Assembly: GCA_949358305.1 (NCBI GenBank)
Contig: OX442314.1
Location: 27,776,001 to 27,840,000, forward strand
Length of the DNA stretch: 64,000 nucleotides
Source: Strigamia acuminata
Taxonomy: Eukaryota
Reading direction: 5' to 3'
In this document: piece after piece, positions 9,251 through 48,292 of the stretch
Position numbering within the stretch: the first letter of the stretch is position 1
How the letters are laid out: each line of letters opens with the position of its first letter
Made by a program: the position numbers and the translations under genes
Notes under the pieces: generated by a model
What the model was told of the DNA's origin: nothing
Databases searched by the model: none
Seen by the model: the letters and a program-made list of their open reading frames with translations, nothing else

Positions 9251-12200
9251 ATGCCCGCTCCTAAAGCTTTGCGCATCCGTTGGATCCGTATCCGTACTCG
9301 CCAATTTGTGCGACAAGAATTGCAAACTTCACTGTCGGGCAAAGATAGTTTGCAATATATAAACAAAGTTGTCGAGAACACTGGAATAGTTCGTGCACTT
9401 TGGTTGGTTGGTTGGTTGGTTTGTTTCGGCATTTGCGGTTATCAAACATGGGAAAGATTACAATTCTACATGTCTGGACCCTACAAAGTTGAAATTGATT
9501 TTGTTCCAATTCAAGAAAGTAGATTCGCTGAAATTAGACTCATGGCGCTTGATACTCCTCTGATGTCGGAGTACTGGGACAAAATACCAGAAGGTAATTC
9601 AATTGATGATGTAAAAGAAAGAATGAGAGCTTGCAGCATCCCAGTGAGAGGAATCATTTCGAAGAAAGTCAAAGTTAAAAATTACACACACTTGTGGGAG
9701 CATTCCAATATTTCAGAAAATATGCAGCACTCTAAGTTGAGACAAGTAAGTAACCTTGGATAAATAAAAGAGCTATATGAAAAAAATTAGACTTTGACCG
9801 ATACCGGTATCGGTATTGGCTATCGGCCGATATTTCGGTATTCACCGATATCGGATCCGATATTTTTTGGCCTGGCCGACACCGATATTGCCACGTTACT
9901 AAAACGTTTTAGACTAAACGATACGTTTTAGAAACGCTTTTGAAGCAGTATAAATTATATACTGTTTCTAAAACATAAAATAAATTAATAAACGCAATTT
10001 TAATTTAATTTTTTTTTATTTTGGGGGGTGGTGGAGGGGGTCGGACATTTTAATTTTAATATCGGCGCAGGTATCGGTATCGGCCGATATTCGGTTGCCG
10101 ATTATCGGTATAGGCGATACTGCAAAAGATCAATATGGGTCAAAGTCTAAGAAAAATATTGTTGCCAGTATTTTGTTAATTACTACTTTTTCAGGGCAAA
10201 ACTGTATTACTTGAGACCAAGATGAGAAATGGCAATTACACAAACCAAGAGACAACAGTTGAAATAAAATACAAGAATTCTGTTTTCGGCAGTACACTGA
10301 TTGGGAAAACAGGTAAAATTAATATAATCATATTTTCCATTTATTATATAATCTTTTTTGGCTGTATTTTTTTCTTTTTTATTTTTTTTTAGATTTACTA
10401 CCGGTTCAAAAGAGAAAATTGCATATCCTTTTTAAAAAAAATGGAACCTGTGACGTACCAATGGTTGCAGTAAGTTCACTTTGTCAAATTGGGAATTCGT
10501 AATATGTGCAATATTCTTAAGCGCAATTATACCAATCACACTTAAGAATGGTGTTGCATAGTGCAAATATTCGTACCTGTGACGCGTACAAATTACGTAG
10601 GCATGCGTTTGCTCAATTAGCGGATGCCTAAATCGGCCGAAAATGTCGGCGCCGACTCGAAGTCGCTTTGCTTGCAATGTTGGCACTGACTTCTCCCAAT
10701 CATGCATTGACCGCTCCACACTGCAACGATCCGGGTCTTTCTATTTAATATTCGGAAGGAATAATAAATAATCACCTTTGAGATGCCGTATTGAACTTTG
10801 TTACCGCTTGGCCACCCAGGGTCACCTGCGTCACTGCCACACACCACCTTACAGCCCCAAAGTCATCCCCTTTATGGGTGGACTGACCTAGCCTAGGAGA
10901 GGAGGGAGCTGAGTGGTGTGGTGGAGACTCAAGTGTGAGAGGTGAGAGAGAGAGGTTGGTTTGTCTCTCTGTCTGTGACCGGTCGTGCTAGAGAGAGGTG
11001 AGTCTCTCTCCGACTGTGAGGGAGAGAGGAGCTGTGATCATCGAGGGGACAAGAAGTGTCCCGGGCTATCGTGGACTCTGCACTCCTTGCCATTCACCAC
11101 AGCAAAGCTCAGTACTATGGCGGTCTCCTTAGTGCACCCTCCATGAGTGGCTGCATGGGTCATGAGTGAGTACGACATGAATGTTATGTTTGTCGCGCCC
11201 CTACTTCGCTCTTGCAGACTCGTGGGTTGATTACTTAATTCGACTAACTCACTACCGCTTTGTTCGAGCGGTTTACCCAAAGAAATGATTACACAGATAT
11301 AAAAGGTAAAATATAATATAGATTTATTCTGTGGGACAATGTACAGATATATCTTATATATATATATGAAAGGTAAGTAAAAGGTAAATCGGAATGGGTG
11401 ATGGGAATGGAAAGGTAAAGGTAAGATGAAAGCTGGCTGGAATCGGCGAGGTCGTCTGTTGTCTCGTTCGTGTTTAAGATGGCGTCCTCGTTGTGGCAAC
11501 GTGATGTCGTCTTGGGCCGGCGTGGCAATATGGCGTCCTCGACTCGTCTCTGGCTGGTCCTTCGGGCTCACGCTGGTCAGGCGCGAGTGAATGCTTAGTT
11601 AAAAGGCTTACTTCGGTCTGTTGTCTAGGTTTTTGTGTGGTGTCCGGCGATCACACAGCGGCGGACTCTTCTGGCTCCCGGCGGTCACACAGCGGCGGGA
11701 ACGCTCGTCGTTGTTTTACTGCAGTTTAGGCTTGTGCGACCGTTTGTCTGCACAACTCGCTAAACTGGAGTGGTTTTTACTATTTCTAGCTGGTGTGCTA
11801 AAATAGTGTGGTAATCTTATCTCGCAGGTTACTCTGCGGAGTTTGACACTGACCAAACGTACTCACGGTAAATTGTCCTTTGTCCTTGGTCAATCCCAGT
11901 ATATTTACTTGGGCCTGATCTTGTAGGACGACGGGTTTTACGTGTGTTTCTCGTTTGATGGTTGTGTTGGTTCTGCCCGCTCAGTGCAAGGCACATTCCT
12001 TTGCACAAAGCGGGGTTGACAGGTGACCGGAATCACCCAATGGTGGGGTGGACGAGCCATCCCCACTCCCTCAGGGCAGACGCCTGTCCATTGACTAGAT
12101 GTCAATGCACTGAGGGAAGGGAGACGCGCTTGCGGCTCCCCTTACACTCGAAACGAGGTCACGAGAGAAACTCTTCGTTGACCCCGGTCCAGTCGGGTCA

Positions 12201-15200
12201 CAACACTTCCCCCTCCGAGCTCAGACCGTGGGGCTGAGCGATCACTTCTTTTTTGGGGGACCCGACACTGAGTCCGTCACCTGGGCGTAACTCACTCCAG
12301 GGACAGGCGGTTGAGTGCCGGGTGGCGCGGATAGATCGCCTACTAGCGCCGAGGACCGATCGCGGGGGTCCTCATGCTCCGTAATGAAACATAGTGCATG
12401 GCCGTCAACTGGCTCATGCGGGGCACGCGTCCTCTCGTGCAACCAAACGCTCGGGATGTAGGCGGAGAAGCCGGTGTTCGTATGCCGGATGGCATTGGCT
12501 TCCGCTGGCGTCACTGGCGCACGGTGGGCTCTCAGCAACCTCTGGTGGAAGATGAGGTCTTTAGTCTTCCGTATCTGGTTGTGAAGCCAGATGAAGACCG
12601 ATTTGCCTTTGTCCCGCTGTGCGAGGATAAACCTCCTGGTCGCCGTTGTCATCGAAAGATGGGGAAACTCGTTGATGATTCGCCCATAATAGTCTGGTGG
12701 AGGCGGTGCCGGCTTCGGCTTCTGGGTGGCCGCGGGAATCACGGCTTGCGTCGTTGTCGCCGCTCGGGCCGGTGGGGTCCCGGGCGGTGTCGGCTTCGTT
12801 TGCTCGACGGACCTGACGGGTGGCGTTCGGCACAGTAAGCGCTTTGGTTTACCCGCCACTTCGAACAGGGCGGGTCCTTGCGGGGACATCTTCGCAGGCA
12901 TCGGTGGCGGAATCGGAACTCCGCTCGTCGGCGAGATCATCATTTCCACTTCCTCTGCCGGTTCTTCCGTCTGGACGGTCAAGGCGCGCAGTTGTTGGGT
13001 GGGCGCCGCTGTCCAGGTGGCGGAGGTGTAACGAAACGCCGTGCTTCGTAACTTGTACCCTTCAAATTCTGGGTTTACCACATCCCTGGTTAGCTCGTAG
13101 CGAGTCAACACAGGGTCGGGCAGAATGGAGCTCCACTCTGCGAGGAGTGCACGGGGAACCTGTACACCCTCTCTGTCCACGGCAGACCATGCGGCCATCG
13201 ACTGACGCCCTTCTCCGAAGAGTGCTGGGGTTAGCAGCTGCATCATGACCTTGGTCAATGATAACTGTAGGCTGCGACGATTCACTGGATTCGATCGCTC
13301 TGAATCCTCAGTGAAGGCACGCGAGAGCTTACTCATCATCGTGATTGCCCATTCGATAAAATATCGCTGTGTTTGATCCACACCTCGCAAGGCAGGTGCG
13401 GAGACTCTTGGGTCTTCCATCACGAAACGAAACGCTGAGAGCTCGGAGATAGTCGGGTTGGCGGCTTCTCTCGCGAGTCGCGCTTCTTCGTCTCGCCTCT
13501 CGAAGAACAGGGCAGAGGAACCGGGTCGGGGTCGGCTCGGCCTGTAAATGTCGGTCAAATTGTTTCGACATTCCTGCAAAATGCTCTGTCCGACGGGGAG
13601 AAGGACTGAGCGGTCGGTGGGTAAATCCGGCGGATCGCTCGAATTCAGCAACGACGGCGGCGGCAGGTTCGGAGGCGGCTGCGTCTTGGTCGGCAGCGTT
13701 GGCGTCGGCAGCGGTGGTGGTGGCTGCGTCGGCGGTGGTGGCGTCTCCGTCGTCTGCACCCCAGTCATTGCGACTTGGGGCGCCGGGAGATGTTGTTCGG
13801 AGCTTGAGGGCTGTACGATGGCGGTTGGCATGCCATCGGGTCGCGGTCGCGAATTTATGTAGTCTGCGAGCCACCTTGCCACCTCGTGTGGGGTCACCAT
13901 CCCGTCGGTGACAACACCCATCTTCCTGGCGTGTTTCATAGTTGGATCGAAACGTGTCAGTTTTGTCCGCTTCATCTGGGTCAGAATCTCGCGAAGGTCC
14001 CGCGTATCTGCCGCTGGGACGCTTCGCTCACCTGACTGGCTACCACTTCGTCGACCCGCTCTTTTGGAGATGTAGGCGGGTTCGGGGATGGGACGGCCCC
14101 GAGCTTCGCACCTCGCGAAGTATCGCTCCTTGCGATCTCTTCTCCGCTGCTCGCGATGAGTCAGCGGACGTCTAGAAGTGCTGGGACGGGAGACTCGCTC
14201 TTCGTCGCCAGACATCCAAACCTCCTTGCACTCCTTACCGTCTTTAATCTGACGGTTTACGAAAATTCGCGGTCGGGAATACTGCGAAGGGTCACGCACC
14301 GTACTAGTGGATGGCCCAGCTTCGTTGCCTTCAGTCGTGTTTTGAATGACACGCTGCTTCTTGGTTGTCACCGGGGAACGCGACTGGCTGTTCCCGGCGC
14401 CTTTGGAGCGCTTGCGCTTCCGCGGGTAGCTGCTTTTGGGCCCCAAAATCCCCAGGTGGTGGAGCTGCCACATCTCGGCTTGGGACGTTAAAACTCCCAT
14501 CCGAGGTCTCCACTGGGGCGTACTCTCCCCCAATCGCAGCCTCTCAAACCACAGATGAATATCATCCGCGGTCATCCCCTCGTTTTGGAGGATGCGCTCG
14601 GCCACTGCCGTAGCGGTATCCACCAGCTGTTGCCTATACTGCTGATAGATGGCCTCACGGGCCTCTTCTGTCTCGGCTGCTTGCCACGCATACAGCACGT
14701 GTTCCTCCGCCGGATTGCCAGTGTACTGACTTGACAATCCGGGGTGGAAAATTGGCGATTTCGGGTCATCGTCACGAGCTAACTCTGTGGCGATGCCTTC
14801 GCGCATCCCCTCCGGGAACGTGTCCAGGAGCGTGCAGTCTCGTACCCAACGTCGGGCGATGCATCGGGAATGTAGTATTCGCAGGCGCCAAGGGTCGGCG
14901 TCCTCGCCGAAACATCGTCGGTAAAATTCGGGCAGCGCGCCTCGAAATATCCCGCCACGAGCGATGCAAGCGGGGTCTAATGGTCCCCATGTTCTACGTA
15001 ATGCCATCTGGAAGGATGGAGAAATAAACAATTAATAAAAAGTTAATATTAAATACGTAGATAAATGGTTGGTTTCGAGGGACGTTGCCGATACGTGCAG
15101 CCGTCCGTCGAGACCGATTCCTGTCTATCGGTGCAAACGTAGGACGAATTGTCCCTCGTCGGATAGAAAAAGAGAAGTCATCACGTAAAAAATCTGTCTC

Positions 15201-33200: not shown

Positions 33201-36200
33201 ACCTCAAATGATAGTCGGTTCCTTTGCGACTACCGGCTCGTTTGTTAACGTCTGAGTCGGAGTCCGTTACTCGAGTATTATCTGCCATTTCTTGCTTTGG
33301 GTATGATGTAATCACAGGTTAGAATCAGTTATTCAACTTGATCCCGGACAGGCCCCCACGTGTCGCGCCCCTACTTCGCTCTTGCAGACTCGTGGGTTGA
33401 TTACTTAATTCGACTAACTCACTACCGCTTTGTTCGAGCGGTTTACCCAAAGAAATGATTACACAGATATAAAAGGTAAAATATAATATAGATTTATTCT
33501 GTGGGACAATGTACAGATATATCTTATATATATATATGAAAGGTAAGTAAAAGGTAAATCGGAATGGGTGATGGGAATGGAAAGGTAAAGGTAAGATGAA
33601 AGCTGGCTGGAATCGGCGAGGTCGTCTGTTGTCTCGTTCGTGTCCAAGATGGCGTCCTCGTTGTGGCAACGTGATGTCGTCTTGGGCCAACGTGGCAATA
33701 TGGCGTCCTCGACTCGTCTCTGGCTGGTCCTTCGGGCTCACGCTGGTCAGGCGCGAGTGAATGCTTAGTTAAAAGGCTTACTTCGGTCTGTTGTCTAGGT
33801 TTTTGTGTGGTGTCCGGCGATCACACAGCGGCGGACTCTTCTGGCTCCCGGCGGTCACACAGCGGCGGGAACGCTCGTCGTTGTTTTACTGCAGTTTAGG
33901 CTTGTGCGACCGTTTGTCTGCACAACTCGCTAAACTGGAGTGGTTTTTACTATTTCTAGCTGGTGTGCTAAAATAGTGTGGTAATCTTATCTCGCAGGTT
34001 ACTCTGCGGAGTTTGACACTGACCAAACGTACTCACGGTAAATTGTCCTTTGTCCTTGGTCAATCCCAGTATATTTACTTGGGCCTGATCTTGTAGGACG
34101 ACGGGTTTTACGTGTGTTTCTCGTTTGATGGTTGTGTTGGTTCTGCCCGCTCAGTGCAAGGCACATTCCTTTGCACAAAGCGGGGTTGACAGGTGACCGG
34201 AATCACCCAATGGTGGGGTGGACGAGCCATCCCCACTCCCTCAGGGCAGACGCCTGTCCATTGACTAGATGTCAATGCACTGAGGGAAGGGAGACGCGCT
34301 TGCGGCTCCCCTTACACTCGAAACGAGGTCACGAGAGAAACTCTTCGTTGACCCCGGTCCAGTCGGGTCACAACATGTTGAACCGACCACATCACCCATG
34401 GGGCTCACACCCTGTGTGTGACGGGTAGGTTACCGGTGCGGTGTGCCTATTGGCATCCCTGCAACGGGTGACAGGATTCCCCATACCCCTTGACAACACA
34501 TATTAAAGGCCAACAACCAATAATAGGGATTCTTTGTCATTTATTCGTGAGTATGCGTCCCACACCAGGATAACCAGTTCCTGAGTTACCTTGGCAAAGG
34601 CCATATCAGTCACAATACTTACAATGTGCACATGTGCGACGTCGCACAAAACTTGTCGTCGCGGTGTATGCATGCAAACATTATCGTAATGTAAACTATC
34701 TCAAACTGAGACTAGCTGACCCGAAAGTAACATGACACACACACCGCCAGTTAAATTCAAAAGTAACTTTGTTCAACAATAACCCTATTTAAATATCACA
34801 CTGGTCGGTTCCCATTGGTTAATTACCACGGAACAGCCCCGATTGGCTGTTTACACTTAAAACGTTTATCGGACGTATTTGTGTACGTCCGCCCGCCCCC
34901 TGGCGACACGTTGTCGCCCGTCAAAACCCGAAAAACTCCACAGTAACATCGCGAGTAAGAATATCGCATGTATGATGGAAGCCCGTCAAATTGTTTTTCC
35001 TTCAAGGGGGTGGCATATTTCGTTCAATCCTGATCATATAAATTGTTCACACTAACCTGATTTAGCGTGGCTAGCCGAATATATCATGAACAGTTTATGC
35101 AACTGGGATTGTATGTACAATTGCGGCCATAAAAATTGTTCATTACACTTCCACCGTTTAATACTAGGTATCTCTGAAGGATGGTGTCATGCCCTATCGA
35201 TACACTTTGCCCGTGCAGATGGGAATTGAAGCTGAATTTCAATTTATTTTGCGCAAAGTGAGTTAATTGCTTGTTTCTTTAGTTCTTGCAATTTGTTCAG
35301 TGATGCAGCAACATTACAGATATCTTGTGACAGTTATTATTGTGGATACATTCAACAAAAATAGTGATATAGTATTTCTTTTCTGCAAGTATCAATTTTT
35401 ACCTTCAAGAAACCCCTACTGTGAACCCAGCCTTATAAAGCAAACCCAATGTTATGAAGACTGTGTGTCAAAACAAACTCTAAAAAAATATCCACAATGC
35501 AGGTCTGTAAACTTAGTTCACTGAAACGATTGATAATGCTGATACTGTAGATTGTTTACTTAGATTGCCTTACATGGCTGACAAAAATCTGCCAGACTGC
35601 AGTTTAGAAGCAAACAAATCAATTGTGCTTAAAGTGTATGACGACTCCTACCATCCCGAAACATCCACGCTGGCAACAATTGAATGTGGTTGCCTAAGAC
35701 CTTGTCAAACGAGTGTTTATCACCTAATAGTGCAGACTGATACTTGTTAAGTCAAACAATTTTATTTTTACGCGTAATTATAACAAAATTAATCATCTTT
35801 TACTGTTAGATTTTGAAGATGAACCCAGTAGTAAAGATTTAGTAAGTTTGAATGTTAAAGTGATGGAAGAAACATTTGTCAGAATGACAGAAATCTACAT
35901 TTACAAAATTTCTAATTTGGTCATCGATTTTGGCGGTAATCTAGGATTTTCTTTGGGATATTCGCTCCTCTCTATAATCGAAATTGTACAATTTGTTTCG
36001 CTTTTGTGCTACAATAAGTATATTAGACCTGTTCGACTACAAACTCACATTAAAACAAAAGTCATTTATCAAATTAAAATGTCAAATTTGAAGAAAAAGG
36101 CAAAGAAGACTTTGACTCAAACCTCGCCCATGCTACAACACACGTTTTTCATTCTCATTTTGATTTGTGCTTTCTTAGCAGTTTATGTGAGCAAAGAAAG

Positions 36201-39200
36201 AATTACATTATATCTGAGTGAACCAACAAGATATGTGGTAAATATTCAAGAAAATGACACATTATATATGCCCAACATTATTGCATGTATGGACGGACCC
36301 TTAACAACACGATACAGGAACCGATATGCCAAAATTACAGGCATTCCAGAATGCAAAATTCACTTTGTTGATTTAATGAATACAACTATCAACAGAAAAA
36401 AGCCATCAATGGAAGATGTATGGCGCTATCAAACACCTATAATGGACACTGTTTCCATGGAGACTGCAGCAAGTGTAAGTGTATGGTCTGATGTCCAAAA
36501 GTGTAAAAGAACAGTAATCGTTGTCTTTATGACATGAAATCCTGGTTCTTAACCTTTGTAGCAGTTGGCAACCCTTGACTTTTGCAGTCTCTGCTCACAG
36601 CTGACCAAAGGAAAATATTTTTGAACTAAGTTTTTACTGGTGTTACTTAACCACTTCTGAAGTAGCTTTGTACCCCCAGAATATCTATCTTGCACCCCCA
36701 GGTGGTTGTGACGATTGTACTTTTGGCTGAATATACAGTATTAGCTTTTAAAGATAAACCTAACCTACAGAGATAGACTAAAACTGTGTGCTAACAAGGG
36801 GAGTGCACCAATATGACTCTTCAGTCATGACCAAAATTTTTGAGGAATTTATTTACCTTAAACAGGTCCCCAAATGTTTTTATGCCATAAACAAGCAGAA
36901 CAAGCATGAACAAGCAGTTATTTTAATGTTTGTAATTTTATATTTGTTAAAAAAGTAAAATTAATTAAATTAAAATTTTCTGATAAATATAAATATAAAT
37001 ATAAATATAAAATTACAAACATTAAAATTACTGCTAAAAATAAATAAAAAAATTAAGTAAAAATTTTCACACACATCAGGATTTGAATCTGTGTGGAAAG
37101 ATACCTAGTCCATTGCTTTAACCACTGGACCACCACTACAAACTATTGTTGTCTTCATGAAAACAGTCATGTTGGTGAACAAAGTTCTGATGTCATGACA
37201 TCATTGAATCTCAAATGATGAAATGACATCATTGAATATCAAATGATAAAATTCAACCTGGATCTTGGAACTATTTTTTACCTAGCAACAGTTGTTTACA
37301 ATATTCCTCCACAAGCCTAATTACTCCCAAAAGTGCACTATCACCATAGAAAGAGTCCGAATTTAATGTTTGATTTATTTCATTCTGCCTGTTCATGGCA
37401 TAAAAACATTTGGGCAGCTTATTTACCTGTTTGAGCTAAATAAATTCCTCAAAAATTTTGGTCATGACTCATGACCAAAGAGTCTTATTGGTGCACTCCC
37501 CTTGTAAGTGAATAACAGAATAATACGAACAAACAATGTACAGGTAACGTGATTATGTTTATTATAGAGTACGACTGGGTTCTCGGTTCTGGGCACGTGT
37601 AAACAGGCAGCATCGTCTAGTTGAGGATCTGGACGGGCCAAGGGATAGGGCTGGATTCGCGGCATCGTCACAATAACATTACATGGCCGTATTCGGCCAC
37701 GTGGCTAAAATGCACAAAGATGCGGAGAATCCTCTGCATTTACCGAGATTTATAACATCGATTATTCAATTGACGGAATCGTGATTCGAACAATACTAAA
37801 CTATAAAAATATAACAAATAAACGTTAGATATTATTCCATATTAATATTATTAGCGGGGTCAGTCACGATGGTTTTAAGGCCATCGCGGGAGGTTATTAC
37901 ACCCCCATCCGCCACATAGTCATAACAACTAAGAGCCATGACGGTCGTAGAATCATGAATGATCCATGGCTGGGAGGATTTATTGTCCGGGTATTCCTTC
38001 CCGCATGATAACAGTATAACACTTTATAAATACAACAGCAATTCAATTACTCGGGCGAGCTATTGCCGGAACACACAGACTATCCAGTATGCTAGTGCTA
38101 GATCAAACTAGTCCTTTCTACTAAATTCAATCATTTACAGGATAATTGTGCATAAAATGTATTTTCTTAACAGAACATGGGAATAAAAGCAAATGCATCT
38201 TGGAGCAAAATAGCTATGCACACAGGAACATGCTATCAATCTCGAATAGGTAATTAAAAATTTTTACAAAAATTATAATTGTATAACAATTACTACCGTC
38301 TTTCCCCGAATATAACACCATGGTGATGTATTCGAATATAACACCACCCTAGTGTTGTATTCGTATACAACACCATGGTGTTGTATTCGTCAAATAACAT
38401 GTAAGTTTGTAAAAAAAAATTGTTTCCCAAATTGATTTATAAACATGATAGCCTCTCTCTCATTGGCATCAGCATACACATATGAAACAGGTCGCGAGTT
38501 CACTGTAGCTTCCACTTCGCACAAAGTGTGGTTAGTTCTTCAAAGGTTAACACACGACGCCCCAAAATTTTCTTTAGTGATACTTTAACCGTTCTCACCA
38601 TCCTCTCCCAAAAACCCCCCCACCATGCTGCCCGCTCAACAATAAACTTCCACGTGATATGTTGTTGATCGAATGGCCCCCGTCAAGACTCTCAACTCAG
38701 CATCGGCCCTCTTAAACGTTTTGGCGTTGTCTGAATATATTATTTCTGGTACACAGCGACGAGCAAAAAATCTTCTCAACGCCATCATAAAATCTTCGGT
38801 ATTCATCGAGGACACTAATTTTAAATGAATGGCTCTTGTCACTGCGCAAGTTTTGAGAGCAATATAACACTTGTTTCTGGTACGCTGGTAAAGAGGGCCG
38901 GCAAAGTCTATCCCTACTATTTGAAAAGGGTCAGCTTTCTTGACTTGATCGATTGGCAAAGGTGCTTCTATTTGTCGCATCAAGCGTCCCTGAACCTTCC
39001 TACAAATAAAGCAATTTCGAATTATCTTTTTCACGTACAATCTCGCACGTGGAACCCAAAAACACGTTTGAACTTCCGCGAGAGTGTCGCCGAGACCCCC
39101 GTGAAAAACTCTTCGGTGTGAATCTAACACGTTCGGTCACTCGCTGTCCCCCTGGTAACACCCACGGTCCTTTGGCTTCTTTCCTAACCTCGCCCCATTC

Positions 39201-42200: not shown

Positions 42201-45200
42201 GTGAACGGAGGTCGACTCGATTTCCTTTCCTCTTGGTTCAATTCTTTGCCATAATTGTTGGCGGCTGCTGTTCGTTCCCTCAACCCGATTTGTTTATTTA
42301 AATACGCGAGGAAGGCTTTGATATCCGTTTTGACGTCATTATCGTGGCGATCTGGGCGGTAATGGCCTGCTGGTTTAACAACATCTGGGCGACAATTGCG
42401 TCCTCAAGCTTTTTTGGTTGGCTGCCGCTGTTGCCTCGTTTGCTTGACCCATCTCGGCTCTTCGTATTTCCTCTGCATGCTGAGTCAAATCCTCCGTTTG
42501 ATCGATTAATCGTTTTTGATAAATATCCGCCGTTTCTCGGTCGGCCATGTAAGGTTTAAAGCGATAAATATGGAAACACATTTTGTAAAACTTTGTAAAA
42601 TTTAATTGAATTAATTGATAGCAAGCATGCGCTAACGACAAAACGATGTAACGTGATATACATAACAATGTACAATATAAAAAGGAACAGAATGTAAATA
42701 ACAGAAATCAGAACTCTAAATCATATAACGAGATGAATGAAAACATGTTACAAAATTGATGTTAAATGTATGTGAGCGAATCATCGTGGCTACTGAAATA
42801 AAAACCACAACTGCAATGAAGTTAATCGATTGAAGTTCATCCAAAATACATAACATGCTGGCGACGAGCGTAAACGGATCGAATCCACTGTTTATCGCGG
42901 TAACCCTAATGCTTACAACATAAAAATTCGAGAGTTTACATAAAGAATTACGTCTGAAATGGGCCATTGGTTATGTCGTTGTGAATGGAGAGACGAATCA
43001 AATTTCGAATGAGGAAAAACGATGGCCACGATTGAACAGACCCGCGACGAACTCAATTCGTCCATGGACTCCAAGCGTAAAAAACTGGACGACATGCTAA
43101 AACGTAAGCGCAACGAACTCGTCCTGCAAATCCAATTAGAACGGGACCAACTGCTCGCGGAAATCGTGCAAGTTTGCACCGAACAACCGAATGGTGCAAC
43201 TCGAACGAGCGAATTTACTCGTGGCGCTTGAGGAAGGATTCAAAAACGACAACACGAATCGCCTGGCGCAACTGAAGAAGAGTTTGAAACGTAAGCAGGA
43301 CGTGGACTCGAGCAACGAGAAGAACTTTGAGAAGTGGTTCACCAAATTGGCCAAAAACAAGAAATCGATTAATTACGTGGATTACTGGCGAGCTAATGTA
43401 GACAGACGTCAAACTGACGAGATTGAAAACCTCAACATGAACAGATTGCGTGTGCAAATTGCTCTAGATAGCTTAAATTTGTACACGGATATTGTGAATC
43501 AATGTCTGACATTGAGAGGCCAACAAGAGGAAATCAACCTTGTGCACGATGGAGTTCAAGAAAATCTGCTAAATGAACGAGATGACATCGTGGGAGTCAA
43601 AGGGATGTTTCAGCATGACAAAGAGAAATTATTCGAGCAAATTCGATTCAACTGTTGCGCCCATTACTTCCTTGAAAACAATTTAGGCGACAATATGATT
43701 GCAATCCGAGCGGACAACTTCGCTGTCAACATGACCTTGTACGGAAAAGGTTTACTCGACAACTCCTGTGTGAATCGCGAGCCGTATTTAGCTCCTGCCA
43801 AGCAGCCCGCCATGAATCTGGGCCAAGAACAAGAGTTTTCCATGCATGATTGGCAAAAAGTGATTTCAGCCGTCCTTAACAAAGCGTAACTAGAATTGAA
43901 CCAATCGCCGCAACTGCTTGGTGTAATAGACTGGTTTTGGAGTCATGCCGCCGAAGACTTGTACTACGAACTAAACGCCACGGAACAGGTGTTTTATAGT
44001 CGCATCGGTGAAAAGAAGGTTGTCGTCAGTCATCTAAAGTTCGAGCACCAAGTCAAAGCTATACAATTCAACATAGAAAACCTGCTCAAAACGATCGCGA
44101 AAATTGTGCGACCGCTAATTTGTGAGCAAGGTTACACAGTGCTGCAAACGAAACGACCCAACATTGAGTTTTGCATTGCTGGACTTCAAGTGGGTCACAA
44201 CTCGGATGTTGAGCAGTTAACGTACTCACTAAATAGCTTGAAGAAAAAACCGCAAGAGACTGAACACATGCTGCATAAATTAATTTGCAACAAATTGGAT
44301 GTGGTGGGTGACATAAAAGTGAAGAAAAAATTGATTTGCATCGACCAACGTGCGACCGAGGCAAAACATGTCAGCCAGAGAATCGAATTCGGCGTCGCAA
44401 CTGCGGTCGACGAACCCCAGAACCATAGGATCGAAATAGGCGAACGTTTTAGTGAGATAATCGAAATGACCAAACGCACGAGCGTCGAATTGAAGCTCGG
44501 CACAAATACGAGCTGTACAGGCGTGCGAGCATCGAGCATCCACATCGGGATTGCACAAACAACGAGATCAACGAGCAACGAAGCAACGACAACAACAACA
44601 ATAACAACAGCAACAACAACAGCAACAACAATAACAACAGCAACAACAACAGCAACAACAATAACAACAGCAACAGAAAATGTAAAGGAAATTAGCAAGC
44701 TAGATTTCCGGGGAGATGTAAGGTTTAAAGCGATAAATATGGAAACACATTTTGTAAAACTTTGTAAAATTTAATTGAATTAATTGATAGCAAGCATGCG
44801 CTAACGACAAAACGATGTAACGTGATATACATAACAATGTACAATATAAAAAGGAACAGAATGTAAATAACAGAAATCAGAACTCTAAATCATATAACGA
44901 GATGAATGAAAACATGTTACAAAATTGATGTTAAATGTATGTGAGCGAATCATCGTGGCTACTGAAATAAAAACCACAACTGCAATGAAGTTAATCGATT
45001 GAAGTTCATCCAAAATACATAACAGGCCACAGCTTCGTCATCATCGGCGATTAAATTGCTTATTCTTTCGTCTAATCCTGCCAAAATTTCCTTCTTGGCT
45101 AGGAGTTGGGCCTTGTGTCGAGCCAATTTTTTCAAATCGACCGGCACCTCAGCGAGTAGGCCGCCTGTCGCGTTAGTCAGTCGGGTGCACGCCGTTCTCG

Positions 45201-48200
45201 CGGTCGTGCGATTTTGCTTCAACTTGTCTATTTCCGAAATTTCGGCCATTTTACACGCAAAATACATTTAACACTCACGTTTAACACAATTTTTCAGGCC
45301 GGTTTAAATTAATGTTTCCGGGTTTCGGCACCATGTGAAATCCAGTAGCGCAAATGTTGTAAAGTTCTCCTTTTTGGTGAAGTAATGTTTCAGGTTTAAA
45401 AAATGTTCGGTTTTTTTCAGTGTTTGAGTTTTTCAGTGGTTGAATACAATAAATTTCTAGGTGCTCAGCAAGAGCAGCTCTCCTCGTTTAAGGTGAAATG
45501 TGTACTACTTTATTCATGTTAAGAAACGAAGTTATATGCAAAAAATAATTGGTTGTTCTCAGAAATGTGAACAAAAGACAAAAAAAAAAGTCAAAAACCC
45601 TAATACAATACAAACGTCACCACATCTGGTGAAAATTATAAATTATCAGAAAACATAACAAAGACTCACTTTTTCCCTTCAAAATTTCACAGAAAGCAAT
45701 TAAATCCCAAAATACCATCACCAATTTAATTAAAATCAAATTCATTAAAACCCTAGTTTTCACAAGCATATACACGAACGCTCACGTCCTAAAAACATTA
45801 TTTTTATTTCATCAGCAAAAAAAAAATTGGATTATATGGATCGATTTCAGTTTTTTCAAACATCCCAATCCGAAATGTACGGATAAAAATTTGGAATATC
45901 CAATCCGATTAAAAAAAACGGATTGCTTTGAGGCCATCTGAAACCGATTCAATCCAATCCGAATTCGGTTTGAATCAGATTGCATTCGATCCGACCCCAC
46001 CCTTAAATAACACTAACTTGAATTCACACATTTCTAAACAACCCTGTTTGCACCACTGCACAACACACCTTCAATAAACAAATTTGTTAAATGTGTATGT
46101 TTAATATGTAAAATCCAGTGCACGTTTCGGTAGCGTTTTGGAAGCGTGCACTGTACGTCTTTCATACTTTTCTAAAAATTCGAATATAACACCATGGTGT
46201 TATAGCTGAAGTGGTGATATATTCGAATTTTTGCTCAATGTTTACAAACTTGCCATTTTGAGCAAAACTCGAATACAACACAATGGTGTTATTTTCGGGG
46301 GAAGACGGTAGTGTAATGACATTATTTTCTTAGAACCACTAACGTATGCAGGAGTTGCTTCAGCAATATTTTTTAGTTTTCGACCGAACAAAGATCAAAT
46401 CTGTCAGCAAAATGAGTACGAGGTAATGAACACATTCCATTTGTCATCAACTCTTGAATTTTGCACGGGACTCGAATAAATACACAAGTTGCACAATACT
46501 TATCCACTGGGCGGACAAGAATCGCCGTCAAGAGTCATAGTAATTCATCATTTTGATAAATTACTAAAGACATTTGCAGTAAGCACTGAGATGAAATGTA
46601 CTGTCACGTGCATAGTTTTCATCCCTTTTCTAATTTATTAGATTTTCTCATTTTATTATTTTTCTAATTTAACCTATTTTTATTTCTATTATTTCTGCAA
46701 GTGATCTTTTATAATGTATGCGCAGATACTTCTTTGCGCATCACATTATTTTCTGATTCATCTTTAGTTCTGCCCCACCCCTGATCACAATTAACATTAC
46801 CTGCCAATCATGTGATCAGAGCTGATTTCTGGGCTAACAGGCATGTAAAATTCACTTTCTGGCTTGATTGTCGACAGAATACATCTCTCTGGAATTTCAG
46901 TTAGTTAGTCACTTTTCTTTTAAACCCTGGCACAACACAGAACCTTGGTTAAAACCCAAGTCATCTGCTAGTGCATTTAAAGGTGGATTTCACAACTGAA
47001 TAAGCCATTTCTTTGTGCCTTAAACAAGCGCACTCCATCCAATTTCTAACAGTATCGTGCCTATTTCCCCACTATGTTAAGCCATGCTTACTGATCATTC
47101 TCCATCCCTAATGAAGTTTGAGACCCGAGTCAAACCCTTTCTTTTCGGTTAGTCAACACTAACAAAACACTCAAATCTTGCATGTACAAAATAGTGTTGT
47201 AAACTTCAGCGAATTGGGATTTCTCGACCGCCTGACGTCCTTATTAAATGGCGGCCATCTTTGGGACTACCCACAAACCTGGACCCACGCGCGAACTTCC
47301 ACTTGCGCGTAGTAAAGTTATTTAAATCCACCACCAACCGGATTGAACGTGACAGTACTTACACCAGCTTGTATTTTTGTTAATTGTAGGGGTGTTTGAT
47401 CAGAATTGACTTCATGCTAAATATCAAGAATACGATAACTGTAGTTTTCTTTCTGTAGGTGTACTTTAAACAAAGCGAAGCAACAATTCCATCAATTCCC
47501 TCAATACTAAGAAGCAGAAGAAGTATTAAAAGAGACACCTTTACCATTCTCACATTCAAAATGTTTAAAGTATGTGTGCAGACAATTATTTAAACAAAAC
47601 TGCTAAATCAATTGTTTTAATTTAGACCATTCGATTAAATCTGAAATCTCAACCTTGCCTTGACCATGACAAATACATGAGATGCCAAGATGATTGCTAC
47701 GAACAAAAGATTTATAATATAATTCAGTGCAAGTGAGTATTTCTTTTTCTTTTTATATGTATGTGACATTTAGGGAGTTACTGTACGAGTGCTGTCATCA
47801 CTTTTCACACTTGTAAAAATCTGTGTTTTGGACATTAAGAAAACCAACAGATGAAATTTTTAAACTTTACGTGATGTAGTTTGCAATACATGTTATTTAA
47901 ACATTTTTAGGTTACCATTTTTGGTCAACATCAATAAGAATAATTGCACCAACTTTCAAGACATTAAAACTTCATTGGCATCGTTCATAAACAGTTCATT
48001 AACTACCGATACAATGATTGACTGCGGTTGCCATCCCCCTTGTGAAGAGCCAGTGTTTGACACATTCGTTTTCTTTCAAGACACAAATGCATGGCCACTC
48101 AACATTCTCGCTATAATTCCAATGAACAACATAATTGAAAAGTTTAAGCAAATATTATCTTACACTGAAGTTGCATTGTGCTGCGACATTGGAAATTGTT

Positions 48201-48292
48201 TTTCACTAATGCTTGGCCTTTCAATTCTTGCAATTCCACAGCTATCGCAAAAAATGTTCTTGCAATTTATGCGACTAACCAGAAAAAACTGA
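9251..48292 (+). CDS. DEG/ENaC (pickpocket/ASIC-like) channel gene with two tandem subunit repeats, 12 coding exons, 834 aa
   Basis: Predicted exons 9251-9745, 10195-10312, 10393-10469, 35168-35257, 35390-35502, 35564-35745, 35810-36474, 38174-38249, 46334-46422, 47459-47569, 47626-47732 and 47911-48292 total 2505 nt, in frame, with GT-AG introns. Motifs: TM1 RALWLVGWLVCFGICGYQTWER, Cys-rich thumb C..DC / CGCLRPC, TM2 FGGNLGFSLGYSLLSIIE; second repeat TM1 HTFFILILICAFLAVYVSKER, GTCY, CGCHPPC, IGNCFSLMLGLSIL. Confidence 0.85.
9788..10149. mobile_element. hAT-like MITE in intron 1
   Basis: TIR tagactttgacc/ggtcaaagtcta and a near-perfect 8-bp TSD (aaaaaaat/agaaaaat). Absent from the duplicated intron at ~58020. 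Confidence 0.8.
11191..12205 (-). repeat. 3' LTR of Gypsy element 1
   Basis: Direct repeat of 33361-34375; I found only two dinucleotide differences. Confidence 0.95.
12242..15007 (-). CDS. ORF3: ~921-aa Pro/Arg-rich non-envelope accessory protein, with probable upstream exon 15857-15946
   Basis: Long intact ORF in the env position ending just before the PPT. A polypyrimidine acceptor (tttctccatccttccag) directly precedes the ATG at 15007. NLS-like PRKRKRSK and C-terminal PPKKK; no obvious signal peptide or TM segment. Confidence 0.8.
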   Translation of the reverse strand: MALRRTWGPLDPACIARGGIFRGALPEFYRRCFGEDADPWRLRILHSRCIARRWVRDCTLLDTFPEGMREGIATELARDDDPKSPIFHPGLSSQYTGNPAEEHVLYAWQAAETEEAREAIYQQYRQQLVDTATAVAERILQNEGMTADDIHLWFERLRLGESTPQWRPRMGVLTSQAEMWQLHHLGILGPKSSYPRKRKRSKGAGNSQSRSPVTTKKQRVIQNTTEGNEAGPSTSTVRDPSQYSRPRIFVNRQIKDGKECKEVWMSGDEERVSRPSTSRRPLTHREQRRRDRKERYFARCEARGRPIPEPAYISKRAGRRSGSQSGERSVPAADTRDLREILTQMKRTKLTRFDPTMKHARKMGVVTDGMVTPHEVARWLADYINSRPRPDGMPTAIVQPSSSEQHLPAPQVAMTGVQTTETPPPPTQPPPPLPTPTLPTKTQPPPNLPPPSLLNSSDPPDLPTDRSVLLPVGQSILQECRNNLTDIYRPSRPRPGSSALFFERRDEEARLAREAANPTISELSAFRFVMEDPRVSAPALRGVDQTQRYFIEWAITMMSKLSRAFTEDSERSNPVNRRSLQLSLTKVMMQLLTPALFGEGRQSMAAWSAVDREGVQVPRALLAEWSSILPDPVLTRYELTRDVVNPEFEGYKLRSTAFRYTSATWTAAPTQQLRALTVQTEEPAEEVEMMISPTSGVPIPPPMPAKMSPQGPALFEVAGKPKRLLCRTPPVRSVEQTKPTPPGTPPARAATTTQAVIPAATQKPKPAPPPPDYYGRIINEFPHLSMTTATRRFILAQRDKGKSVFIWLHNQIRKTKDLIFHQRLLRAHRAPVTPAEANAIRHTNTGFSAYIPSVWLHERTRAPHEPVDGHALCFITEHEDPRDRSSALVGDLSAPPGTQPPVPGVSYAQVTDSVSGPPKKK
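16451..16896 (-). CDS. pol: Displaced C-terminal end of the integrase
   Basis: Removing the nested element and one ccgc TSD restores ..DGPYVIIGKHGGNAYKLRKLED..IQVRELTPY in frame. Confidence 0.9.
19406..20887 (-). CDS. Orphan ~493-aa basic, N/Q-rich protein carried by the LARD-like element
   Basis: Only long ORF in the element, with first ATG at 20887. Internal repeats F..YC....L....FKNI.EA..(Y/F)V and GP(F/I)HVWFS each occur twice. Confidence 0.7.
   Translation of the reverse strand: MAQKPLNMIDPKGNNKQTNLNLSSVPLGDQTEKIPDHFTLYCNRHGLDKTKFKNIIEASDYVKARNWRDRTQSQSSHQDPVRNPQTYSRNLVNQDSHTMFQTSSRGSKLEKFKPPNSVDKGEENYKPNNSHPESSLTNQSVVQNKLKLVYNRDQLISVRYANPAEAQRYVASLNLSINLPLSKELGTVNKSFGPPISTQRKDIRTPNKHLQSNNVQQRARSPITNSCLRTYDLSTKKSPQPRQFYLTPISNRKKVKQTFPLKKYYQHDNENDFKPKKESFLTNPREIRYQFEQYCKQYQLNSAEFKNINEAQQFVFRNQYRNQRLKPVPVVNLTEIQQFASGKQPCNIQNNSSQREELRTSKKRFRSPSPAGDEETSSTNQHVQKLTENPGFQSSVPRLRVKYRSPRLLRDFTIPNMGPFHVWFSNEGPIHVWFSRDDLKQKVGSSRSFTLPSQYTVCNCPKEKRRKKSVQQAERSRKFANMRAQYLAKNHVD
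23820..24647 (-). repeat. 235-bp tandem leader repeats, each with a tRNA-Gln PBS
   Basis: TGGAGGTCCCACCGAGAT at 24158-24175, 24393-24410 and 24628-24645 (235-bp period), plus more degenerate units towards 23820. Confidence 0.92.
26562..30250 (-). CDS. pol: Pol (protease, RT, RNase H, integrase), expressed by -1 frameshift and interrupted at 26561
   Basis: LLDSGA, LCIDYR, MPFGL, YLDD, TDAS, TDH, HHCC, VDVMGP, SDNGPQF, GPY motifs. The -1 frame is open from the A_AAA_AAC sites. Confidence 0.95.
30205..33315 (-). CDS. gag: Gag with long R/S/E-rich N-terminal extension and CCHC knuckle
   Basis: CFKCNQPGHYSKEC knuckle, capsid-like block (AREWYQ..WDDFLMRF..FRQMPGETIMDY), and position after the PBS. 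Confidence 0.92.
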   Translation of the reverse strand: MITSYPKQEMADNTRVTDSDSDVNKRAGSRKGTDYHLRSGGPLPKASAHESRQKRRKAKPDRRSASEASHPSHAETRQRLDETERSEDPSHPKPPRPNRDGETSGNEVLSRNQSPRLTHDTEVSDPRATSSIQRMASDTTANSALNTPITHSRPASVMSEGHKSNSSSVKRVSSQPYSVSGTLIDAMQLAQAEGVRYTLPTGKITVYETLQIVRAALKAHSVSPQITIVEGAYAQQLVDSAQFEADAENEARQAIRERRRKLAEREAQALEYGRTQPNPTTPEEVEIVDRALRAHRYAFHSQQEAERAFMARLRRDDPKSVRKPEVSSSELSDESLEGDPKRTPKAKPKPQPERATPATPRKRDASAREQQTRPRMQALDSATNNAITRLINANNAKRNEEQALTSQQHDNPQGTEWQQPVPILEDDESSRRQSHDRTFSREEGKRDERPKYYHYGNSDSSSDGLESNAPSHHDSERGSGERRRERERDERREKERDDRRRGRKESNSSRRNPPRRSPSPDPSSDPSSNDDRRKDKSSNRRKRSNSPRDREKRRRSENSDHRREEFQDLPRQSAFTDSTGRQYTMGELGRALLGSLKAEGIDLSKRNDRNRSTGDRVKKKYAVSRRDTMSITGNIRWQFYIQNRFDGSWKAGDRFLDEVIRIKTATKATVGDMLTHGIVELMTGSAREWYQGLKGVNWDDFLMRFDLRYGETPEEVSRKMRGFRQMPGETIMDYDIRARLLFEKAPMEFHATGFNLFFLGGLSEYSQRVLLEERAPTGGSYEEMSAFLFENTIDIEKRYYSALPEAEKAATANRLKLSAERYGGTDKIMRPTEYLSGIMELAEASVGLQIKNKLTFTLPSNPLAAPKKAPTASAMQATLEEVKEGEEAGQDAGKSDEKEEKDDYSTDEEIRSYRDTLSTGCDEEGPLVHLIHRDRAVEEFRARLKPNAGRIPKYFRKNYTPPSKADPEKKKSTEAPRDKSNIRCFKCNQPGHYSKECPRTAKEDAKFDAIMKQMAEIKLAMAKNESKNESAQAAKK
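33341..33358 (-). promoter_or_regulatory. Primer binding site, tRNA-Pro
   Basis: TGGGGGCCTGTCCGGGAT matches 16/18 of the canonical Pro PBS TGGGGGCTCGTCCGGGAT and lies 2 nt from the LTR. Confidence 0.9.
33361..34375 (-). repeat. 5' LTR of Gypsy element 1
   Basis: Direct repeat of 11191-12205, followed on the minus strand by the PBS. Confidence 0.95.
35810..36474 (+). CDS. Channel gene exon 7: TM2 of repeat 1 fused to TM1 of repeat 2
   Basis: Single open frame (ORF track 35848-36537), with acceptor ttag at 35809 and donor gtaagt at 36475. Confidence 0.85.
36794..37505. mobile_element. MITE with long TIRs
   Basis: acaaggggagtgcaccaata...aaaattttt(g)aggaatttattt is inverted at 37438-37505. Confidence 0.75.
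37075..37136 (-). pseudogene. tRNA-derived fragment (SINE head or tRNA pseudogene)
   Basis: Minus strand has A-box-like tggtccagtggttaa and B-box-like gattcaaatcc. The cloverleaf is incomplete. Confidence 0.4.
42548..45024 (+). mobile_element. Small non-autonomous LTR element with cargo ORF, inserted in the BEL gag
   Basis: Apparently identical 308-bp LTRs (42548-42855, 44717-45024) with TG..CA ends, 5-bp TSD ggcca, PBS TGGCGACGAG (tRNA-Ser(GCT)-like) at 42859, and PPT ggggaga. Confidence 0.93.
43022..44774 (+). pseudogene. Cargo ORF (~580 codons; one frameshift, one in-frame TAA), coiled-coil and possibly STAT-like
   Basis: ORFs 43191-43889 and 43896-44774 share a frame; 43022-43231 is shifted. 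No gag/pol motifs. The STAT resemblance is by eye only. Confidence 0.5.
46602..47354. mobile_element. Solo LTR in intron 9
   Basis: tgtcacgt...acgtgaca termini with 4-bp TSD gtac. Confidence 0.75.

What the first reader, a model, noticed from the sequence alone, without database searches (positions are those of the whole stretch)
9251..48292. Natural two-subunit concatemer of a DEG/ENaC channel
Seen: 12 GT-AG exons splice to an intact 834-aa ORF containing two complete TM1-ectodomain-TM2 units. The TM2(1)-linker-TM1(2) junction sits inside one uninterrupted exon (35810-36474), so this is not a gene-prediction merge of neighbouring genes. Intron phases repeat between the halves (0,1,0,0,2), which suggests ancient duplication and fusion. 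Known: DEG/ENaC channels are trimers of 2-TM subunits. Inference: a dimeric chain would need a third subunit from another gene (fixed 2+1 stoichiometry) or an unusual assembly.
Basis: partly seen in the sequence, partly recalled or inferred. Interest (0 to 1): 0.85.

Follow-up and report, generated by a model that had tools for sequence, protein, structure and literature searches.

The report
Two DEG/ENaC subunits in one chain
This arthropod gene, whose nearest relatives are centipede genes, encodes two complete DEG/ENaC channel subunits joined head to tail in one protein, which would likely fill two of the three places in a channel family known only as trimers of separate subunits.

Summary
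I rebuilt the same 12 GT-AG exons (9251-48292, + strand). They give an intact 834-aa frame with four hydrophobic segments and two full DEG/ENaC units (aa 5-432 and 434-833). TM2 of unit 1, a 37-aa linker and TM1 of unit 2 lie in one exon (35810-36474) with no stop.

The fusion is conserved. An exhaustive search with exon 7 gave 53 hits. In 22 of them one alignment runs across TM2, linker and TM1, and 20 of those 22 are proteins of the centipede Strigamia maritima. The Strigamia orthologue (63% identical) keeps the linker in frame and has Leu where the window has the only candidate internal Met. In two trees, first units group with first units and second units with second units, so the fusion predates the spread of this subfamily. 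Four of five intron positions match between the halves.

The nearest solved relatives are the single-unit centipede channels BRTNaC1 and PDPNaC1; PDPNaC1 is described as a homotrimer. No RNA data were available, so expression and assembly (2+1 or otherwise) remain inferred. Eight literature searches found no description of natural DEG/ENaC concatemers. Some Strigamia and shrimp proteins look like three-unit chains.

The parts
9251..9745 (+). Exon 1: start codon, N-terminal cytosolic tail, TM1 of unit 1 (about 9380-9448) and the start of ectodomain 1. The donor is CAA|gtaagt, phase 0.
   Evidence: An in-frame stop lies at 9236-9238. Pfam ASC scores 20.4 bits, profile 11-67. tblastn hits come from 8 family proteins.
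10195..10312 (+). Exon 2 (118 nt, ends in phase 1).
   Evidence: It aligns to first units of Strigamia paralogues.
10393..10469 (+). Exon 3 (77 nt, ends in phase 0).
10470..35167 (+). Intron 3, 24.7 kb. It is swollen by an LTR retroelement (LTRs 11191-12205 and 33361-34375, 99.6% identical) that carries a nested element (LTRs 16897-18811 and 24648-26562, 100% identical).
35168..35257 (+). Exon 4 (90 nt, phase 0 at both ends).
35390..35502 (+). Exon 5 (113 nt, ends in phase 2), a Cys-rich part of ectodomain 1.
   Evidence: It aligns with exon 11 of unit 2 (blastp, E 3e-11).
35564..35745 (+). Exon 6 (182 nt, ends in phase 1).
   Evidence: It is 69% identical to residues 1-45 of the Strigamia orthologue P0001.
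35810..36474 (+). Exon 7, the junction exon. It holds the end of ectodomain 1, TM2 of unit 1 (about 35941-36009), the cytosolic linker (about 36010-36120), TM1 of unit 2 (about 36121-36204) and the start of ectodomain 2.
   Evidence: Pfam ASC E 7.1e-13 with two stretches. It is 63% identical over 99% of its length to P0001.
38174..38249 (+). Exon 8 (76 nt, ends in phase 1). It carries the G-x-C-Y-type motif of ectodomain 2.
   Evidence: It aligns to P0001 and to second units of paralogues.
46334..46422 (+). Exon 9 (89 nt, ends in phase 0).
   Evidence: Its end aligns to P0001.
47459..47569 (+). Exon 10 (111 nt, phase 0 at both ends).
47626..47732 (+). Exon 11 (107 nt, ends in phase 2).
47911..48292 (+). 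Exon 12: end of ectodomain 2, TM2 of unit 2 (about 48170-48247), a short C-tail and the TGA stop at 48290-48292.
   Evidence: Pfam ASC scores 21.9 bits, profile 332-449. Many tblastn hits.
48373..48378 (+). AATAAA, 81 nt after the stop: a candidate polyadenylation signal.
   Evidence: Read directly. Its function is inferred.
57495..57989 (+). Intact paralogous copy of exon 1, which also shares 2.6 kb of upstream DNA. The match to exon 2 stops in mid-exon at 58134, with retroelement gag-pol frames from 59382 downstream.

Best explanation
The locus is an intact 12-exon gene whose single 834-aa product holds two complete DEG/ENaC subunit units joined by a short linker predicted to be cytosolic. 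The chain would likely supply two neighbouring positions of a three-position pore, with the third position coming from another chain.

Shown directly: the reading frame, the splice sites and the four hydrophobic segments; the junction inside one exon; conservation of the junction in a centipede orthologue and in many paralogues; and positional orthology of first and second units.

Inferred: the topology (N-in, TM1a, ectodomain a, TM2a, about 37 aa in the cytosol, TM1b, ectodomain b, TM2b, C-in). The trimeric frame is also inferred: PDPNaC1 is described as a homotrimer, and three chains are deposited per entry for some BRTNaC1 entries.

First units keep the usual pore-helix pattern (D-x-G-G-N-L-G ... 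G-x-S ... followed by an acidic residue). Second units share a different pattern (D-I-G-N/S ... G-x-S/C/T, no acidic residue). The two positions therefore look specialised and the pore would be built asymmetric.

By analogy with antennal BRTNaC1 and PDPNaC1, and given the large expansion in Strigamia, a sensory role is likely but untested.
For: - Gene model: 2505 nt, 834 aa, one stop, 11 GT-AG introns, four hydrophobic segments.
- Junction exon: it is open through TM2, linker and TM1.
- Database hits: an exhaustive phmmer search with exon 7 gave 53 hits, and 22 have one stretch spanning both TM segments. Of those 22, 20 are Strigamia maritima proteins, one is a Halocaridina rubra protein and one is an unnamed 1154-bp contig.
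- Junction count: my unit HMM finds a unit-end to unit-start junction in 26 of 54 sequences, the model included.
- Orthologue: P0001 is 63% identical over exon 7. The linker is conserved in frame, Leu replaces the window's Met 449, and exons 6, 8 and 9 also align.
- Trees: 9 first units and 8 second units are each monophyletic. In FastTree the supports are 0.23 and 0.978. In IQ-TREE the SH-aLRT values are 66.3 and 96.5. One label change is needed on either tree, and 0 of 2000 label shuffles reach that.
- Introns: 4 of 5 positions are identical between the halves.
- Pore helices: they differ by position across paralogues.
- Structure: an AF2 model of the full two-unit paralogue P0013 has pLDDT 75.8 and pTM 0.71. 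Its unit 2 matches BRTNaC1 (8ymr_A, Z 21.1, rmsd 3.5, 319 aligned). Its unit 1 matches PDPNaC1 (9jf7_A, Z 20.0, rmsd 3.5, 316 aligned).
- Literature: PDPNaC1 is described as a homotrimer (PMC12714832, abstract and passages). Engineered ASIC concatemers form functional trimers (PMC10329638, passages).
- Gene end: AATAAA lies 81 nt after the final stop, and there is no stop after unit 1.
Against: - No transcript evidence exists. No RNA run holds the stretch, and the two runs laid are DNA contigs that cover the introns too.
- The Strigamia comparators are predicted proteins, not cDNAs, and many are fragments.
- Pfam scores for exon 1 and exon 12 alone are below the curated cutoff. Whole-unit Pfam scores for the window's protein could not be measured.
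- My unit HMM was trained partly on the model's own units, so its E-values for the model are circular.
- The window's unit 1 has a degenerate post-TM1 motif (F-A-E-I-R-L-M-A-L), where other first units have F/L-P-x-x-x-x-C.
- Introns 3 and 8 carry very young retroelements, and the neighbouring gene copy loses its match in mid-exon 2 next to retroelement sequence. The region is therefore in flux.
- Support for the first-unit clade is low (0.23 and 66.3).
- The first-unit and second-unit lists for the shuffle test were chosen after seeing the tree. Two post-junction units from fragmentary proteins (P0018_u2, P0022_u2) fall outside the second-unit clade.
- The assembly mode was not tested at all.
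Confidence: 0.7

Rival explanations
1. The family of two-unit genes is real, but this particular copy is silent or on its way to becoming a pseudogene, and its frame simply has not broken yet.
For: Very young retroelements sit in introns 3 and 8, with LTR pairs 99.6-100% identical. The tandem neighbour loses its match in mid-exon 2 next to retroelement sequence. Unit 1 has an unusual post-TM1 motif. No RNA holder is listed, which is no evidence either way.
Against: The 834 codons and 22 splice sites are all intact. Exon 1 compared with its paralogous copy gives dN/dS 0.36 (11 synonymous and 16 non-synonymous changes). All retroelement insertions lie in introns. Exon 7 is 63% identical to the orthologue, with gaps of whole codons only.
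Confidence: 0.13
2. The locus makes two separate single-unit proteins: unit 1 through an alternative 3' end, and unit 2 from an internal promoter or acceptor using Met 449. The chain would then never exist as one piece.
For: A Met (MSNLKKK) sits 24 codons after the hydrophobic core of TM2(1) ends. An ATTAAA lies just before it, and AG dinucleotides occur in the linker. All of these are common by chance in AT-rich DNA.
Against: No stop codon follows unit 1 in frame anywhere in exon 7. The Met is Leu in the Strigamia orthologue, which has no Met between the two TM segments. It is also absent at that place in P0007, P0008 and P0016. The linker is conserved as coding sequence. No 2A-like N-P-G-P motif (motif recalled) is seen in the linker as read.
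Confidence: 0.05
3. The two-unit chain does not sit in a 2+1 trimer. One option is that three chains build two linked trimers. Another is that one unit of a chain is left outside the pore. A third is that the family has changed its subunit number.
For: No single-unit partner was identified here. Three-unit chains seem to exist in a sister clade (P0005 and P0007, two junctions each) and in Halocaridina (P0046, three full units). This suggests that whole pores can be built from linked units.
Against: Nothing was tested. PDPNaC1 is described as a homotrimer, and three chains are deposited per entry for some BRTNaC1 entries. Complete single-unit relatives exist in the hit list (P0043 at 404 aa and P0050 at 394 aa, both with an initial Met) and could serve as third subunits.
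Confidence: 0.1
4. The junction is an assembly or annotation artefact that joined two neighbouring genes.
For: Multi-ASC predicted proteins in other animals (for example Polypedilum, 1460 aa, and Callosobruchus, 901 aa) may include such merges.
Against: The junction is read straight from raw DNA, not from an annotation. DNA contigs of two runs cover every bin across it, though they may be the window's own source. The same junction recurs in an orthologue and in more than 20 paralogues.
Confidence: 0.02

Closest known systems
[quoted passage not shown]
   Same: It has the same small-ectodomain DEG/ENaC fold. Unit 2 of the modelled paralogue P0013 matches 8ymr_A at Z 21.1, rmsd 3.5, 319 aligned. 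The family profile hits it at E 7e-44. It has 431 aa, seven exons and two TM segments (passages), like unit 1 here, whose coding sequence also spans seven exons (exons 1-7) and has two TM segments.
   Different: BRTNaC1 is one unit per chain, and several of its PDB entries hold three chains. The window's product is two units in one chain, with a short linker in place of free termini. Sequence identity is about 19-21%.
PDPNaC1, a proton-gated channel of the centipede antenna; PDB 9jf7; PMC12714832
   Same: It is the best sequence match among solved structures (E 7e-45). Unit 1 of P0013 matches 9jf7_A at Z 20.0. The TM2 pattern G-G-x-L-G ... G-x-S is shared with first units.
   Different: It is a 421-aa single unit with nine exons, described as a homotrimer (abstract and passages). 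It has no fused partner.
Uncharacterised Strigamia maritima proteins (for example T1ITA9, T1ITL7, T1JD34, T1IPM9)
   Same: They have the same two-unit architecture. T1ITA9 (P0001) is the fragmentary orthologue (63% identity over exon 7). T1ITL7 (805 aa) and T1JD34 (791 aa) are full two-unit chains that end just after the second TM2, as the window's protein does.
   Different: They are database predictions without names or study. Paralogues are only 21-24% identical per unit to the window's protein.
Engineered ASIC concatemers
   Same: Subunits are linked head to tail through the cytosolic termini, and the linked chains form working trimeric channels (PMC10329638, passages; PMC8871370, abstract only).
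   Different: These are laboratory constructs with artificial Gly/Ser/Ala linkers, usually of three units. Here the link is natural, is conserved between species, and joins two units that are about 17% identical.
Natural tandem-subunit channels of other families (two-pore-domain K+ channels, two-pore channels); recalled, not tested here
   Same: The principle is the same: two pore-forming units in one chain.
   Different: Those families have four-fold pores, so two chains of two units fit evenly. A two-unit chain does not divide evenly into a three-fold pore.

Membership tests
DEG/ENaC (Pfam ASC, PF00858) | Significant match to the ASC profile | tested here: met
   The exon-7 frame scores E 7.1e-13, 48.8 bits (cutoff 23.6), with two stretches. 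The exon-1 frame (20.4 bits) and exon-12 frame (21.9 bits) are below the cutoff on their own. The spliced protein could not be handed to Pfam. Full two-unit paralogues score E 1e-32 to 1e-49 with 3 or more stretches.
DEG/ENaC (Pfam ASC, PF00858) | Two TM segments flanking a large ectodomain, per unit | tested here: met
   Four hydrophobic segments lie at aa 44-66, 403-425, 463-490 and 795-820, which is two per unit. The sidedness of the segments is inferred.
DEG/ENaC (Pfam ASC, PF00858) | TM2 pore motif G-x-S preceded by D-x-G-G/N (motif recalled, and seen in solved relatives) | tested here: met
   Unit 1 reads D-F-G-G-N-L-G-F-S-L-G-Y-S. Unit 2 reads D-I-G-N-C-F-S-L-M-L-G-L-S, a divergent form shared by the second units of paralogues.
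DEG/ENaC (Pfam ASC, PF00858) | Post-TM1 F-P-x-x-T-x-C motif (recalled) | tested here: inconclusive
   Unit 2 keeps it (M-P-N-I-I-A-C). Unit 1 does not (F-A-E-I-R-L-M-A-L), although other first units do.
DEG/ENaC (Pfam ASC, PF00858) | ASIC-type ectodomain fold | tested here: met
   This was tested on the paralogue P0013, not on the window's own protein. Both units match centipede ENaC structures at Z 20-21 and ASIC1 at Z about 15.
DEG/ENaC (Pfam ASC, PF00858) | Assembly as a trimer around one pore | not testable with these tools
   A two-unit chain plus a third unit exceeds the 1000-residue limit of the complex predictor, so no job was sent.
Centipede two-unit ENaC subfamily (defined here) | TM2-short linker-TM1 in one reading frame, with first and second units orthologous by position | tested here: met

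The most novel reading that the evidence does not exclude
Mandibulate arthropods have naturally concatenated DEG/ENaC channels as a rule-breaking design class. One form is the two-unit chain, as in this window and in at least 20 Strigamia genes, which hard-wires subunit order and a 2+1 make-up or ties two pores together. The other form is the three-unit chain (Strigamia P0005/P0007/P0041; Halocaridina P0046/P0023, with units orthologous by position). Three-unit chains would be complete single-polypeptide heterotrimeric channels, the first natural ones in any trimeric channel family.
Probability: 0.35. Interest if true: 0.85.

Novelty: new variant of a known kind. Interest (0 to 1): 0.72.

Why it matters
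DEG/ENaC channels (ENaC, ASICs, degenerins, pickpockets, FaNaCs) are described as trimers of separate two-TM subunits. In heteromers the subunit ratio and order are hard to control or even to know, which is why laboratories build artificial concatemers.

A natural, conserved two-unit chain would show that evolution has fixed subunit order and ratio in one gene. It raises a clear structural question, because two units do not divide evenly into three positions. It also offers ready-made material for asking how asymmetric pores work, since the first and second units carry different pore helices.

The family is large in a centipede that lacks insect-type odorant receptors (as stated in PMC5203786, passages). 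Its solved relatives are antennal heat and acid sensors. These chains may therefore be part of the sensory toolkit of myriapods. The sequences have sat in databases as 'uncharacterized protein', and the searches run here found no mention of them in print.

Tried and rejected
- RNA evidence: the look-up of sequencing runs listed no RNA holder. The two runs of unknown kind proved to be DNA: short contigs cover introns and exons alike and show no intron-skipping joints. They say nothing about expression.
- Word-indexed protein searches: exon 7 with 'longer' gave 0 hits. With 'near' it gave only P0001. A profile of 9 two-unit proteins returned only its own first member. The taxonomic spread beyond the exhaustive search therefore could not be widened.
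- Own genome: none is held, so I could not count paralogues or look for a single-unit partner in this species.
- Earlier findings of the scan: nothing by sequence or by place.
- Complex prediction: not sent, because a two-unit chain plus a third unit exceeds 1000 residues.
- Literature: searches found no paper on natural DEG/ENaC concatemers. One search was swamped by 'autologous stem cell' hits. The Vizueta 2020 paper on arthropod PPKs (cited in PMC8438182) is not in the library and was not seen. Supplements were not opened.
- Separate start at Met 449: considered and set aside (see rival explanations).
- Third unit next door: none found. tblastn with 53 family proteins plus the model found no ASC exon in the window outside the 12 exons and the exon-1/exon-2 copy at 57495-58133.
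Full report
**What is there.** The window is eukaryotic DNA rich in retroelements. Joined in a script, they give 2505 nt, or 834 aa, with a single terminal TGA, and all 11 introns are GT-AG. An in-frame stop sits just upstream of the ATG. AATAAA lies 81 nt after the final stop. Hydrophobicity shows four membrane-length segments, at aa 44-66, 403-425, 463-490 and 795-820. The second and third of these, and the 37 residues between them, lie inside exon 7 (35810-36474). Exon 7 is part of a 268-codon stop-free frame.

**Family assignment.** Pfam ASC was run on single-exon frames only. Exon 7 scored E 7.1e-13 with two stretches. Exons 1 and 12 scored 20.4 and 21.9 bits, just under the 23.6-bit cutoff. 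A spliced protein could not be handed to the family tools, so whole-unit Pfam scores for this protein are missing.

**Two units.** I built a 399-column HMM of one unit from 11 units of this family, two of them the model's own, so its E-values for the model are circular. It covers the model twice, at aa 5-432 (columns 3-397) and aa 434-833 (columns 10-399). The halves are about 17% identical (64 of 370 aligned columns). Their C-terminal thirds align at E 3e-11. Introns fall at HMM columns 150, 182, 204, 239, 274 and 332 in unit 1 and at 150, 175, 204, 239 and 274 in unit 2. The phases are 0,1,0,0,2(1) and 0,1,0,0,2. Four of five positions are therefore identical, and the remaining one lies in a poorly aligned stretch.

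**Is the junction real?** An exhaustive phmmer search of 1.84 billion representative proteins with exon 7 gave 53 hits. In 22 of them a single aligned stretch runs from before TM2 to beyond the next TM1. Name look-ups covered 30 proteins. Of the 22, 20 are uncharacterised proteins of the centipede Strigamia maritima, one is from the shrimp Halocaridina rubra, and one is a 241-aa frame called on an unnamed 1154-bp contig. By my unit HMM, 26 of 54 sequences (the model included) contain a unit end followed closely by a unit start. Full two-unit Strigamia proteins (P0008 at 805 aa, P0013 at 791 aa) start and stop where the window's protein does.

P0001 (T1ITA9, a 346-aa fragment) is the orthologue. 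It is 63% identical across exon 7 and also aligns to exons 6, 8 and the end of 9. In it the linker is conserved in frame with gaps of whole codons only. The window's Met 449, the only candidate for a separate start of unit 2, is Leu, and no other Met lies between the two TM segments. P0007, P0008 and P0016 also lack a Met there. So there is no stop after unit 1 and no conserved start for unit 2, which argues that the chain is read as one piece.

**Age of the fusion.** I built trees of all units covering at least 250 HMM columns (49 units; FastTree LG+gamma). I also built one on a subset of 35 units after dropping 14 units of nine non-centipede-type proteins (IQ-TREE -fast, LG+G4). Both show the 9 first units (the model's included) as one clade and the 8 second units as another. 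Supports are 0.23 and 0.978 and 66.3 and 96.5. One label change explains the pattern, and 0 of 2000 label shuffles reach that.

There are caveats. The two lists were drawn up after seeing the tree. The first-unit clade is weakly supported. Two post-junction units from fragmentary proteins (P0018_u2, P0022_u2) fall elsewhere. With those limits, the picture is one old fusion of two already different units, followed by duplication of the whole two-unit gene.

**Positional specialisation.** First units keep the usual pore-helix pattern, ending in an acidic residue in 6 of the 8 first units that cover TM2 in the alignment. Second units share a different pattern, with the second Gly replaced and no acidic residue in 4 of the 5 that cover TM2. 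First units have a Trp at the foot of TM1 (7 of 7 that cover it), while 1 of 6 second units has a Trp near there, and not in the same column. The window's own unit 1 has lost the Pro and Cys of the post-TM1 motif.

**Fold and nearest characterised relatives.** An AF2 model of P0013 (38-row alignment) reached pLDDT 75.8 and pTM 0.71, with both units confident and the linker (400-421) disordered. Unit 2 aligns to BRTNaC1 (8ymr_A, Z 21.1, rmsd 3.5, 319 residues). Unit 1 aligns to PDPNaC1 (9jf7_A, Z 20.0, rmsd 3.5, 316 residues). ASIC1 chains follow at Z about 15. The family profile hits PDPNaC1 at E 7e-45 and BRTNaC1 at E 4e-44.

Both are single-unit channels of centipede antennae. BRTNaC1 has 431 aa, seven exons and two TM segments, and is heat-activated (PMC9974506, passages). 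PDPNaC1 has 421 aa and is described as a homotrimer (PMC12714832, abstract and passages). I could not inspect the model's coordinates, so how the two units pack against each other is not known. The pTM of 0.71 is only a weak hint that their arrangement is defined.

**How it likely works.** The chain would thread the membrane four times with both ends and the linker in the cytosol, placing two different ectodomains side by side. In a three-position pore it would fill two neighbouring places in fixed order, and a third unit would come from another chain. Engineered ASIC concatemers joined the same way form working trimers (PMC10329638, passages). Complete single-unit relatives exist among the hits (P0043, P0050), but their organisms are unknown to me. 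Other assemblies, such as three chains forming two pores, or one unit left out, are not excluded.

**A wider lead.** Strigamia P0005 and P0007 each show two junctions. With P0041 and P0016 they form a clade of chains whose units are 48-57% identical. Halocaridina P0046 has three full units 15-17% identical to each other, and its first and second units pair with those of P0023. These may be three-unit chains, that is, whole channels in one polypeptide. All of them are predictions from draft genomes, and I could not read their DNA.

**Surroundings.**
- Intron 3 is 24.7 kb because of a nested pair of very young LTR elements.
- Intron 8 holds a retroelement pol and a Tektin-like retrocopy.
- A second copy of the gene's upstream 2.6 kb, exon 1 and the first half of exon 2 starts at 50568/57495. 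Its exon 1 is intact (dN/dS 0.36 against the first copy).
- Its exon 2 loses the match in mid-exon at 58134, with retroelement gag-pol frames downstream.

**Verdict.** Expression, chain integrity at the protein level, and assembly remain untested. I found no description of such chains in the eight literature searches run for this.

Noticed in passing
window 43140-44774 (+), with repeats 42547-42858 and 44716-45027: An intronless Tektin-family frame (Pfam PF03148, E 7e-19 and 2e-15) is broken by one in-frame stop at 43887-43889. It lies between 312-bp direct repeats that are 99.7% identical, inside intron 8 of the channel gene. It looks like a retrocopy or a gene fragment carried by a mobile element.
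   Followed up: partly
window 50568-52946 and 57295-58134: This is a tandem partial duplicate of the channel gene's upstream 2.6 kb, exon 1 (intact, 27 of 495 nt differ, dN/dS 0.36) and the first half of exon 2. The match stops in mid-exon 2 at 58134, with retroelement gag-pol frames from 59382 to 64000 downstream. The second copy is probably broken.
   Followed up: partly
window 11191-34375: A 23-kb LTR retroelement on the minus strand (LTRs 99.6% identical; gag 30205-33318, pol 26453-30262, and a further 929-aa frame at 12242-15031) carries a nested element with 100% identical 1915-bp LTRs (16897-18811 and 24648-26562). Both insertions are very recent and lie inside intron 3.
   Followed up: partly
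window 2955-6356 (+) and 38500-42400 (-): Long pol-type frames with reverse transcriptase and integrase-like sequence, from two more retroelements. One lies upstream of the gene and one in intron 8. They were not classified.
   Followed up: no
window 6653-6955 (-) and 50496-51044 (-): A conserved minus-strand frame (100 aa and 182 aa) lies inside the duplicated upstream block. It was not searched against any family, so it may be an exon of a neighbouring gene.
   Followed up: no
database proteins P0005, P0007, P0041 (Strigamia) and P0046, P0023 (Halocaridina rubra): These are predicted DEG/ENaC proteins with two junctions each or three full units, with units orthologous by position between paralogues. 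They may be natural three-unit, single-chain channels.
   Followed up: partly
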